13,925 nt of DNA, taken from IMG/VR virus record IMGVR_UViG_3300027824_000187. The stretch is one strand, 5' to 3'. The translations under genes were made by a program, and so were the position numbers. The stretch is from a virus. Every line of letters starts with the position of its first letter. Within the stretch, counting starts at the first letter, position 1. Positions 13,095 through 13,925 of this stretch are shown here, one piece after another. The notes below the pieces were generated by a model. It was not told the origin of the DNA and ran no database searches. It saw only the letters and a program-made list of their open reading frames with translations.

Positions 13095-13319
13095 ATGACT
13101 TGGCTCGTTTACATCGCGGCGGCGTTCGTGTTCCTTTCCTACGTGCTGATCCCTCGTGCGCCCCTGCGCGGATGGTTCTTCGGCGTGATCGGGAACGGTC
13201 TTTATGTTGTTGCGTTTTTGCCGTATCATCATTTAGAGTTGCTCATAGCGCCCGTGGGATTCACGGCGCTTTCGGTTTGGAATGTATGGCGCGAACTCCA
13301 CAAATCTTTACGGCCCTAG
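13095..13319 (+). CDS. 74-aa membrane protein with 2-3 TM helices.
   Basis: Hydrophobic segments LVYIAAAFVFLSYVLI, WFFGVIGNGLYVVAFL and LLIAPVGFTALSVW. No clear SD. It overlaps the next gene by 34 nt. Confidence 0.4.
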   Translation: MTWLVYIAAAFVFLSYVLIPRAPLRGWFFGVIGNGLYVVAFLPYHHLELLIAPVGFTALSVWNVWRELHKSLRP

Positions 13320-13925
13320 ACACCGCTGAGCGGAACGGGTTCCCTTACGGCGACCAGATGATCCATCTGTTCATCGGAGGGAGTGGTCTGCATGGCGGCA
13401 GAGTTGAAGGTAAGAACGATGACGACTACTACGGCATCTTCATCCAGCCGGAAGATAAGATCATCGGTCTCACGGACTACCCGCACTACGTGTGGTCGTC
13501 CGCAGGGGACTCTGCGCGTAATCAGCCCGGCGACGTGGACATCACGTTCTACGGTCTGCGCAAGTGGGCTGGGCTGGCGGCTGGCGGCAACCCTACCGCA
13601 CTGGGCTTCCTGTTCGCTCCAAACCTCATGACGGGCACGTTGTGGGGTGAGATCGTGGATCACACCATGCTCTTCGCCGCGAAGGAGCACTACGCCCCGT
13701 TCGAGGGCTTCGCCCGGCAGCAGTTCGAGCGCGTGATGGGTGTGCGCGGGCAAGGCAAGCATGGTCAGCGCCCGGAGCTTGAGGAGAAGTTCGGCTACGA
13801 CGTGAAGGCAGCAATGCACGTTATCAGGCTGCTCGGTGAGGGCATCGAGTATATGAGCACGGGCAGGATCACCTACCCGCGCCCGGACAAGGCTCTGCTG
13901 ATTGACATCCGCCTTGGGATATTTG
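13286..13925 (+). CDS. Predicted nucleotidyltransferase of the PF10127-like (DNA pol beta superfamily) type, 3'-partial. It is absent from the ORF track.
   Basis: Open frame from ATG 13286 (alternative ATG 13358) to the window end, with no stop. Motifs IHLFIGGSGLHGG...DDDYYGIF and DITFYGLRKWAGLAAGGNPTALGFLF match the hG[GS]...D.D and DI..YELRKF..L...NPN..E.LF signatures of this family as I recall them. The minus-strand ORF 13316..13819 is its antisense shadow. Confidence 0.7.
   Translation, partial: MARTPQIFTALDTAERNGFPYGDQMIHLFIGGSGLHGGRVEGKNDDDYYGIFIQPEDKIIGLTDYPHYVWSSAGDSARNQPGDVDITFYGLRKWAGLAAGGNPTALGFLFAPNLMTGTLWGEIVDHTMLFAAKEHYAPFEGFARQQFERVMGVRGQGKHGQRPELEEKFGYDVKAAMHVIRLLGEGIEYMSTGRITYPRPDKALLIDIRLGIF

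What the first reader, a model, noticed from the sequence alone, without database searches (positions are those of the whole stretch)
13286..13925. Unannotated PF10127-like nucleotidyltransferase downstream of MVP, missed by the ORF track
A long open frame runs off the window end and is therefore missing from the supplied ORF list. It carries the characteristic motifs of a predicted nucleotidyltransferase family common in phages and defence contexts. Together with the AAA ATPase and MVP it may form a three-component accessory module (NTase, remodeller, cage). Alternatively it could begin the next functional unit.
Basis: partly seen in the sequence, partly recalled or inferred. Interest (0 to 1): 0.6.

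Follow-up and report, generated by a model that had tools for sequence, protein, structure and literature searches.

The report
Phage RlaP-type RNA nucleotidyltransferase gene
The open frame at the window's end is a real, conserved phage gene for an RlaP-family (PF10127) nucleotidyltransferase, an enzyme type already known to be common in large phages and thought to mend damaged RNA ends; it is not tied to the neighbouring vault-like protein or ATPase.

Summary
An ATG at 13286 opens a frame that runs off the window (213 codons). It matches Pfam PF10127 RlaP above the curated cut-off and PHROG 388 "nucleotidyltransferase". It has the Pol-beta signature (G31-G32-S33, D45/D47, D83/D85). In a 98.3 % identical contig it continues to a 282-aa protein.

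The "NTase + AAA + MVP module" reading is not supported.
- The AAA gene occurs only in the window's own strain.
- About six related phages keep RlaP without MVP, and three phages with a more distant MVP lack RlaP.
- A hairpin plus T-run, conserved in position but not in sequence, lies between MVP and the NTase.

That unit opens with a 74-aa three-helix membrane ORF (13095-13319) whose end overlaps the NTase start by 34 nt.

Context points to RNA/tRNA work.
- Large tRNA arrays with aaRS-like fragments lie 1-5 kb downstream in relatives.
- The closest bacterial homologues (Acidobacteriota) often sit directly upstream of the CCA-adding enzyme gene.
- An unrelated Gordonia phage places its homologue among kinase, RNA ligase, Ro-like protein and tRNAs.

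RlaP in jumbo phages is already described, so this is a new member of a known kind, of low to moderate interest.

The parts
13286..13925 (+). First 213 codons of an RlaP-family (PF10127) Pol-beta nucleotidyltransferase; the full length is 282 aa in the near-identical contig L001
13376..13384 (+). G31-G32-S33, the hG[GS] nucleotide-binding motif of Pol-beta nucleotidyltransferases (G32 and S33 invariant in 33 homologues)
   Evidence: alignment A1; sequence read directly
13418..13426 (+). D45-D46-D47, the catalytic DxD carboxylate pair (D45 and D47 invariant)
13532..13540 (+). D83-V84-D85, the region of the third catalytic carboxylate (both Asp invariant)
13095..13319 (+). 74-aa ORF with three hydrophobic helices. 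Its last 34 nt overlap the NTase start. It is conserved upstream of RlaP in both phage RlaP clades and resembles one 3-TM repeat of PnuC (sub-threshold)
13061..13088 (+). 12-bp GC-rich hairpin followed by a T-rich tail, 26 nt after the MVP stop. It is a probable intrinsic terminator separating MVP from the small ORF/RlaP unit
   Evidence: -20 kcal/mol centroid hairpin. One search finds an equivalent hairpin plus T-run after the MVP stop in 9 related loci, with different stem sequences. The consensus scan did not list it
10582..13035 (+). Context only: 817-aa MVP-like protein (Vault_3 repeat plus MVP shoulder domain). It is an accessory gene that is present or absent independently of RlaP
9470..10528 (+). 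Context only: 352-aa classical AAA+ ATPase, found upstream of MVP only in this strain

Best explanation
The frame encodes the N-terminal three quarters of a phage RlaP-family enzyme. This is a Pol-beta-fold nucleotidyltransferase with a C-terminal helical (HEPN-like) domain. By analogy with the two characterised Pseudomonas RlaP enzymes, it would use NTP and a divalent metal to add one or two nucleotides to the 3'-OH of RNA. The inferred role is upkeep or repair of tRNAs (the phage's own large set and/or the host's) after host nucleases have removed nucleotides, either before re-ligation or at the acceptor end. It is expressed as a unit with a small overlapping membrane ORF, downstream of a terminator that closes the MVP gene. 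It does not depend on MVP or the AAA ATPase. Shown here: gene reality, family membership, catalytic motifs, predicted fold, and independence from MVP and AAA. Inferred: the RNA substrate, the tRNA focus and the anti-nuclease role.
For: Family and chemistry: PF10127 is above its cut-off and PHROG 388 matches. The GS, DxD and D motifs are invariant in 33 homologues. The AF2 model has pLDDT 89 and shows an NTase domain plus a helical domain. Its best structural matches are NTases and HEPN domains. Characterised RlaP enzymes add 1-2 NMP to RNA 3'-OH and restore the chargeability of over-damaged tRNA (bioRxiv 10.64898/2025.12.29.696909). RlaP is described as the most prevalent RNA-end NTase of jumbo phages (PMC7824862). 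Context: tRNA arrays of 8-18 genes (3 visible before the contig end in L002) lie 1-5 kb downstream on the same strand in L001, L002, L006, L007/8, L010, L014/15, L016, L111 and L114. HisRS- and ArgRS-like fragments lie beside them. In 44 of 77 Acidobacteriota loci the closest bacterial homologue lies a median 52 nt upstream of a PolyA_pol+HD CCA-adding-type gene, with tsaD and gatC/gatA nearby. Gordonia phage Neville places its homologue among polynucleotide kinase, RNA ligase, Ro-like protein and a tRNA array. Independence from MVP and AAA.
Against: No RNA ligase, RtcB or kinase was seen within 10 kb in the related phage loci whose genes carry Pfam annotation, nor among the ten large ORFs I scanned from L006, L007, L009, L010, L011 and L109. 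The partner that gives the family its name is therefore not shown. The phage tRNA genes already encode CCA, so CCA addition is not needed for maturation. The tRNA-array adjacency is conserved among collinear relatives, so it may be inherited gene order, exactly like the MVP adjacency. L109 and L012 show no tRNAs in 3-5 kb downstream. The 44 rlaP-cca loci all come from one bacterial class and are not independent. The Pfam match covers only profile positions 19-172 of 249. No activity of any phage RlaP has been measured.
Confidence: 0.62

Rival explanations
1. NTase, AAA ATPase and MVP form one three-component accessory module (enzyme, remodeller, cage).
For: The three genes are consecutive on one strand in the window and in L001. 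MVP is followed by an RlaP gene in all 12 loci whose MVP is at least 64 % identical.
Against: The AAA gene is absent from every other related locus. RlaP occurs without MVP in six or more related phages, and MVP occurs without RlaP in three. A terminator-like hairpin lies between MVP and the NTase unit in 10 loci. The whole region is collinear among these phages, so adjacency is expected by descent.
Confidence: 0.04
2. MVP and RlaP, without the AAA gene, are functionally coupled. For example, RlaP or its RNA substrate could be packaged in or recruited to an MVP shell, echoing eukaryotic vaults that carry small RNAs.
For: Adjacency is 12/12 among MVP relatives at 64 % identity or more. It persists although the RlaP in that slot belongs to two clades only about 40-45 % identical to each other.
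Against: The same presence/absence data and the terminator apply. Within a collinear backbone, L012/L113 look like natural MVP-less variants that keep the small ORF and RlaP.
Confidence: 0.08
3. The enzyme nucleotidylates something other than damaged RNA. Candidates are a small molecule or nucleotide precursor linked to the PnuC-like membrane partner, or synthesis of an oligonucleotide signal like Hailong HalB, serving as a counter-defence.
Against: Sequence membership is in RlaP, not in the ANT or HalB families; identity to those is 10-15 % and TM-scores are about 0.37. Characterised RlaP enzymes accepted only RNA among E. coli macromolecules (abstract). The PnuC resemblance is below Pfam's cut-off.
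Confidence: 0.12
4. It acts offensively, adding extra nucleotides to intact host tRNA 3' ends (MenT-like) to shut down host translation while phage-encoded tRNAs take over.
For: RlaP adds untemplated nucleotides to RNA 3'-OH, and such additions to undamaged tRNA are expected to lower its activity. The phage carries its own large tRNA set.
Against: Damaged RNAs are the preferred substrates of characterised RlaP. The phage tRNAs have the same CCA ends and would be equally vulnerable. Chromosomal homologues sit in housekeeping tRNA-gene neighbourhoods, not toxin-antitoxin pairs.
Confidence: 0.06

Closest known systems
RlaP (PF10127) of Pseudomonas fluorescens / P. aeruginosa, the only biochemically characterised members (bioRxiv 10.64898/2025.12.29.696909)
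   Same: Same Pfam family above the cut-off, three conserved catalytic Asp, and an N-terminal NTase domain plus a C-terminal helical domain.
   Different: Those genes lie between rtcB and rtcA in an RNA-ligase operon. Here no ligase is seen within 10 kb. The partner is a small membrane ORF, and the wider context is a tRNA island. The HMM match is partial (profile positions 19-172 of 249).
Phage RlaP homologues: T4 NrdC.11 and the 'nucleotidyltransferase' genes of Mycobacterium, Gordonia and Bacillus phages and of jumbo phages (PMC7824862)
   Same: Same family. They are phage-encoded, often in tRNA-rich or RNA-repair-equipped genomes.
   Different: Identity to any deposited phage is at most about 40 %, and about 22 % to T4-like NrdC.11-type genes. 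This lineage's closest relatives are metagenomic phages and Acidobacteriota chromosomes.
Chromosomal RlaP subfamily of Acidobacteriota (Terriglobia)
   Same: 44-51 % identity over nearly the full length, with the same invariant motifs, including GK(K/H)GQRPE.
   Different: The bacterial copies are about 256 aa, lack the small membrane ORF and frequently precede the CCA-adding enzyme gene. The phage copy has a C-terminal extension (residues 260-282).
Class II CCA-adding enzyme / poly(A) polymerase (PF01743)
   Same: A Pol-beta superfamily enzyme that adds untemplated nucleotides to tRNA 3' ends. It is the neighbour of the bacterial homologues.
   Different: There is no PF01743 match, and there are no HD or tRNA-binding body/tail domains. 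It is not a member.
Hailong HalB and aminoglycoside nucleotidyltransferases (ANT(4'), AadA)
   Same: The best structural neighbours of the model: an NTase domain followed by a helical domain.
   Different: Identity is 10-15 %, TM-scores are low (about 0.37) and there is no family-level sequence match. They have different substrates.

Membership tests
RlaP / PF10127 | Match to the family HMM above Pfam's gathering score | tested here: met
   48.2 bits (window fragment) and 47.6 bits (full length), both against a cut-off of 23. Coverage of the profile is partial (positions 19-172 of 249). An acidobacterial homologue at about 50 % identity covers positions 12-247 with 81.6 bits.
RlaP / PF10127 | Pol-beta NTase catalytic signature: hG[GS], DxD and a third Asp | tested here: met
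   G32, S33, D45, D47, D83 and D85 are invariant in 33 homologues and can be read directly in the window.
RlaP / PF10127 | N-terminal NTase domain plus C-terminal helical domain forming a cleft | tested here: met
RlaP / PF10127 | Gene neighbourhood with an RNA ligase (RtcB or a 5'-P ligase), the origin of the family name | tested here: inconclusive
   No ligase, RtcB or kinase domain appears among Pfam-annotated genes within 10 kb in L001, L002, L012, L014-16 and L111-114, or among the ten large ORFs scanned from L006, L007, L009, L010, L011 and L109. None was seen among the conserved neighbours and the sample of other neighbours scanned in the 80 bacterial loci. The rest of these 190-460 kb phage genomes could not be read.
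RlaP / PF10127 | Adds one or two NMP to RNA 3'-OH | not testable with these tools
   This needs a biochemical assay.
Class II CCA-adding enzyme (PF01743) | PolyA_pol head domain plus RNA-binding body | tested here: not met
   P0001 has no PF01743 or PF12627 hit at E <= 0.01. The neighbouring bacterial gene does hit.
Known anti-phage defence system component (PADLOC-DB 2.0) | Match to any PADLOC model | tested here: not met
   There are no hits for the NTase, MVP or the small ORF. The AAA gene has only weak IetA-like hits. Hailong is probably not in this 2023 library.
Proposed NTase-AAA-MVP module | Co-occurrence of the three genes across relatives | tested here: not met
   The AAA gene is found only in the window, L001 and L110. 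RlaP occurs without MVP in six or more lineages, and MVP occurs without RlaP in three.

The most novel reading that the evidence does not exclude
The small PnuC-repeat-like membrane ORF and RlaP, which overlap at the RlaP start in both phage RlaP clades, form a previously undescribed two-protein unit. This subfamily may work with the CCA-adding enzyme on tRNA 3' ends rather than with RNA ligases, as the rlaP-cca adjacency in Acidobacteriota suggests. That would give tRNA-rich giant phages a dedicated acceptor-end repair route against host nucleases that trim tRNA 3' ends.
Probability: 0.15. Interest if true: 0.55.

Novelty: new member of a known kind. Interest (0 to 1): 0.25.

Why it matters
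The gene adds one more phage member to the RlaP family, at most about 40 % identical to any deposited phage. RlaP enzymes are already predicted to help large phages repair RNA damaged by host nucleases. Its practical value is annotation: the gene should be called at the window edge and should not be merged into a speculative "vault" module.

Three side observations could guide experiments on what phage RlaP enzymes do, which nobody has yet measured:
- the rlaP-cca adjacency in Acidobacteriota;
- the small membrane ORF that overlaps the RlaP start;
- the exchange of two RlaP clades at one genomic slot.

Tried and rejected
- A nucleotide search of the phage collection with window 9400-13925 found nothing, so there is no close cultured relative.
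- A sequence search of the PDB with the full-length protein found nothing at E <= 1. Fold searches returned only generic NTase and HEPN neighbours with low TM-scores, so they cannot discriminate substrates.
- PADLOC and NCBIfam gave no match for the NTase.
- I tested whether the enzyme might supply CCA to phage tRNAs. The tRNA genes encode CCA themselves, so a maturation role is rejected.
- I looked for RNA ligase, RtcB or kinase genes near RlaP in phage and acidobacterial loci. None was found within reach.
- The 33 acidobacterial loci without cca next to RlaP have heterogeneous neighbours (hydrolase, DinB, transposase, permease) and carry no message.
- The consensus terminator scan did not flag the hairpin after MVP. 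I accepted it only after finding equivalent hairpins with T-runs at the same position in nine relatives.
- The antisense ORF 13316-13819 is rejected as a shadow of the conserved + frame.

Full report
**1.

The + strand frame that starts with ATG at 13286 has no stop up to base 13925, giving 213 codons. It is absent from the mechanical ORF list only because ORFs running off the end are not listed.

- The translation matches Pfam PF10127 "RlaP" at E = 1.4e-12 and 48.2 bits, against a curated cut-off of 23. It matches PHROG 388 "nucleotidyltransferase" at E = 1.3e-35.
- Contig L001 (ENA k141_44290) is 98.3 % identical in nucleotides to window 4227-13925. There the gene continues for another 69 codons to a 282-aa product, P0001.
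- Against the 87 %-identical homologue in L002, 86 of 127 substitutions are at codon position 3, and 74 of 101 changed codons are synonymous. This frame is therefore under purifying selection, and the antisense ORF 13316-13819 is a shadow.

**2. What the protein is**

- An alignment of 33 homologues with 47-83 % identity shows an invariant G32-S33, D45 and D47, and D83 and D85. This is the hG[GS] / DxD / D signature of Pol-beta nucleotidyltransferases.
- The same alignment shows a subfamily-specific invariant block, G157-K-x-G-Q-R-P-E164, and a P198-R-P200 motif.
- An AlphaFold2 model (pLDDT 89, pTM 0.85) has a mixed alpha/beta N-terminal domain (strands between residues 25 and 90) followed by an all-helical domain.
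- No solved chain matches by sequence. The published-as-preprint PfRlaP structure was not found in the libraries.
- There is no match in PADLOC or NCBIfam.

**3. What is known about the family**

[quoted passage not shown] A 2025 preprint (10.64898/2025.12.29.696909) reports four things for two Pseudomonas enzymes:
- RNA is the only substrate among E. coli macromolecules.
- One or two NMPs are added to RNA 3'-OH.
- Damaged RNAs are preferred.
- RlaP is needed to restore aminoacylation of over-damaged tRNA.

The preprint notes many viral members, including T4 NrdC.11, whose function is unknown. A comparative study of 224 jumbo phages (PMC7824862) calls RlaP the most prevalent end-restoring NTase of jumbo phages, with a distribution mirroring RNA ligases. 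In the deposited phage collection, 636-719 records carry a homologue. These are mostly Mycobacterium, Gordonia, Bacillus and T4-like phages, usually annotated "nucleotidyltransferase", and none is more than about 40 % identical. A phage RlaP gene is therefore an expected item, not a new kind.

**4. The module hypothesis fails**

I collected related loci from both directions: via MVP and via the NTase. I then mapped AAA, MVP, the small ORF and RlaP onto them.

- *AAA:* it is present only in the window, L001 and L110, which are the same strain. L002 has an unrelated 200-aa gene in its place.
- *MVP to RlaP:* all 12 loci whose MVP is at least 64 % identical and that have downstream sequence carry RlaP next. 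The three loci with MVP at 43-44 % identity (L003-L005) have no RlaP within 10 kb.
- *RlaP to MVP:* L006, L007/8, L012/13, L111/112, L113 and L114 (RlaP 51-71 % identical) have no MVP. L012 and L113 keep the small ORF and RlaP, with a 227-235-aa gene where MVP would be.
- *Collinearity:* these phages are collinear with the window over many flanking genes, so adjacency within the clade is what common descent predicts.
- *Terminator:* a 12-bp GC-rich hairpin followed by a T-rich tail lies 26 nt after the MVP stop (13061-13088). Nine related loci have a hairpin plus T-run at the same place with different stem sequences. This marks a conserved transcription terminator between MVP and the next genes. 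The simple consensus scan did not list it, so it remains a structural inference.

One oddity remains. Behind MVPs that are 70-78 % identical to the window's, the RlaP belongs to a second clade only about 40-45 % identical to the window's clade. Either RlaP evolves much faster than MVP, or it has been exchanged in place. I leave a small probability for an MVP-RlaP link without AAA.

**5. The unit the NTase belongs to**

A 74-aa ORF (13095-13319) with three hydrophobic segments ends 34 nt inside the NTase gene.

- Homologues lie just upstream of RlaP, usually overlapping its start, in L002, L012, L014/15, L099, L101, L102, L104-106 and, more distantly, L007/8. They therefore accompany both RlaP clades.
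- Thirteen of 18 members independently hit the first third of Pfam PF04973 (PnuC / NMN transporter). The best E-value is 1.7e-5, which is below the curated cut-off.
- The ORF is absent from all 80 acidobacterial RlaP loci.

I take the small ORF plus RlaP as the operon-like unit. Its meaning is open.

**6. Context pointing to RNA/tRNA**

- *tRNA arrays.* In relatives where downstream sequence exists, an array of 8-18 tRNA genes begins 1-5 kb after RlaP on the same strand, in a recurring order of Trp-His-His-Arg(n)-Asn-Gln-Lys. This is seen in L001, L002 (3 genes before the contig ends), L006, L007/8, L010, L014/15, L016, L111 and L114. In L007/8, L010 and L111 a Ser/Leu tRNA cluster lies upstream as well.
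- *aaRS-like fragments.* Truncated HisRS-like and ArgRS-like ORFs lie beside the matching tRNAs.
- *CCA.* The tRNA genes encode their own CCA, so the enzyme is not needed for maturation.
- *Bacterial relatives.* The nearest bacterial homologues (44-51 % identity) all come from Acidobacteriota, mostly Terriglobia. That also suggests the host phylum. In 44 of 77 such loci with enough sequence, RlaP lies a median 52 nt upstream, on the same strand, of a PolyA_pol + HD CCA-adding-type gene. tsaD diverges upstream and gatC/gatA follow.
- *An unrelated phage.* In Gordonia phage Neville the gene order is polynucleotide kinase, RNA ligase, PRPP-synthetase-like, NAMPT-like, one hypothetical gene, RlaP, Ro-like RNA-binding protein, tRNA array.

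Caveats:
- The phage tRNA linkage is as exposed to the inherited-gene-order argument as the MVP linkage.
- The acidobacterial loci are one clade.
- No RNA ligase or kinase was found within 10 kb of RlaP in this phage lineage.
- L012 and L109 show no tRNAs in the 3-5 kb available.

**7. Most likely mechanism**

*Shown:* a conserved, selected gene for a Pol-beta NTase of the RlaP family with intact catalytic residues. It is transcriptionally separated from MVP and preceded by a small membrane ORF that overlaps its start.

*Inferred from the characterised family members and from context:* it binds NTP and metal at D45/D47/D85 and extends RNA 3'-OH ends by one or two nucleotides. This would restore tRNAs trimmed by host nucleases, either before ligation by a ligase encoded elsewhere or at the acceptor end alongside the CCA enzyme.

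I put about 0.95 on family membership and about 0.6 on the RNA/tRNA-repair role.

*Rivals:*
- the three-gene module (0.04);
- an MVP-RlaP pair (0.08);
- a non-RNA or signalling substrate linked to the PnuC-like partner (0.12);
- offensive tRNA end-blocking (0.06).

**8. Novelty and score**

This is a new, fairly divergent member of a known family in a known setting (large tRNA-rich phages), so interest is low to moderate. The side observations listed under "why it matters", together with the conserved terminator after MVP, are the parts worth a follow-up.

Noticed in passing
window 13095-13319 (+): A 74-aa three-helix membrane ORF overlaps the NTase start by 34 nt. Thirteen of 18 homologues give sub-threshold hits to the first third of PnuC/NMN transporter (PF04973), as if it were a single 3-TM repeat of that fold. 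It is phage-only and absent next to bacterial RlaP.
   Followed up: partly
window 13061-13088 (+); the same position after the MVP stop in L002, L014, L016, L099, L101, L102, L104, L105, L109: A GC-rich hairpin plus T-run lies directly after the MVP stop in every relative, with different stem sequences. This is probably a conserved intrinsic terminator.
   Followed up: partly
window 10582-13035 (+): An 817-aa phage protein has a major-vault-protein repeat and shoulder domain (PF17795, PF11978) and no PHROG match. Relatives at 43-83 % identity occur in metagenomic phage contigs, including ones of 436 kb and 187 kb. What a vault-like protein does in a phage is unexplained.
   Followed up: partly
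L099, L101, L102, L104, L106, L109 versus window/L002/L014/L016: Behind MVP genes that are 70-78 % identical, the RlaP gene belongs to one of two clades only about 40-45 % identical to each other. Both clades are interleaved with Acidobacteriota chromosomal RlaP in a rough NJ tree. This points to in-place exchange or very uneven evolutionary rates.
   Followed up: partly
L017-L061 (Acidobacteriota genomes), around positions 4800-10400 of each locus: A conserved arrangement has tsaD divergent from rlaP, then a CCA-adding-type gene (PolyA_pol+HD), then gatC and gatA, in 44 of 77 loci. I did not find this RlaP context described in the papers I read.
   Followed up: yes
L001 14863-15393; L006 14563-15177; L016 16675-17745: Truncated HisRS-like ORFs (176-204 aa, covering only the motif 1-2 region) lie immediately before pairs of tRNA-His genes. 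A 356-aa ArgRS-like ORF lies after a run of tRNA-Arg genes.
   Followed up: partly
L098 (Gordonia phage Neville NC_060131.1, 49323-59186): The gene order is polynucleotide kinase, RNA ligase, PRPP-synthetase-like, NAMPT-like, a hypothetical gene, RlaP homologue, Ro-like RNA-binding protein, tRNA array. RNA repair, NAD salvage and tRNAs thus sit in one block.
   Followed up: no
window 9470-10528 (+): A classical-clade AAA+ ATPase (weak proteasome-ATPase/CDC48-like hits and weak IetA hits) is present upstream of MVP only in this strain (window, L001, L110). It looks like a recent insertion.
   Followed up: partly
L006 17046-17113; L114 14267-14339: ARAGORN reports tRNA-like genes with a two-base 'anticodon' (undetermined type) inside the phage tRNA arrays. 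L006 also has an R2K ATP-grasp gene (17300-18112) embedded in the array.
   Followed up: no
L001 14654-16500, L014 15754-20322, L007 12862-14706: All but one of the 34 phage tRNA genes inspected encode the 3' CCA. Most are followed by a similar A/G-rich-then-T motif (AGTTT / AGATT), possibly a processing signal.
   Followed up: no
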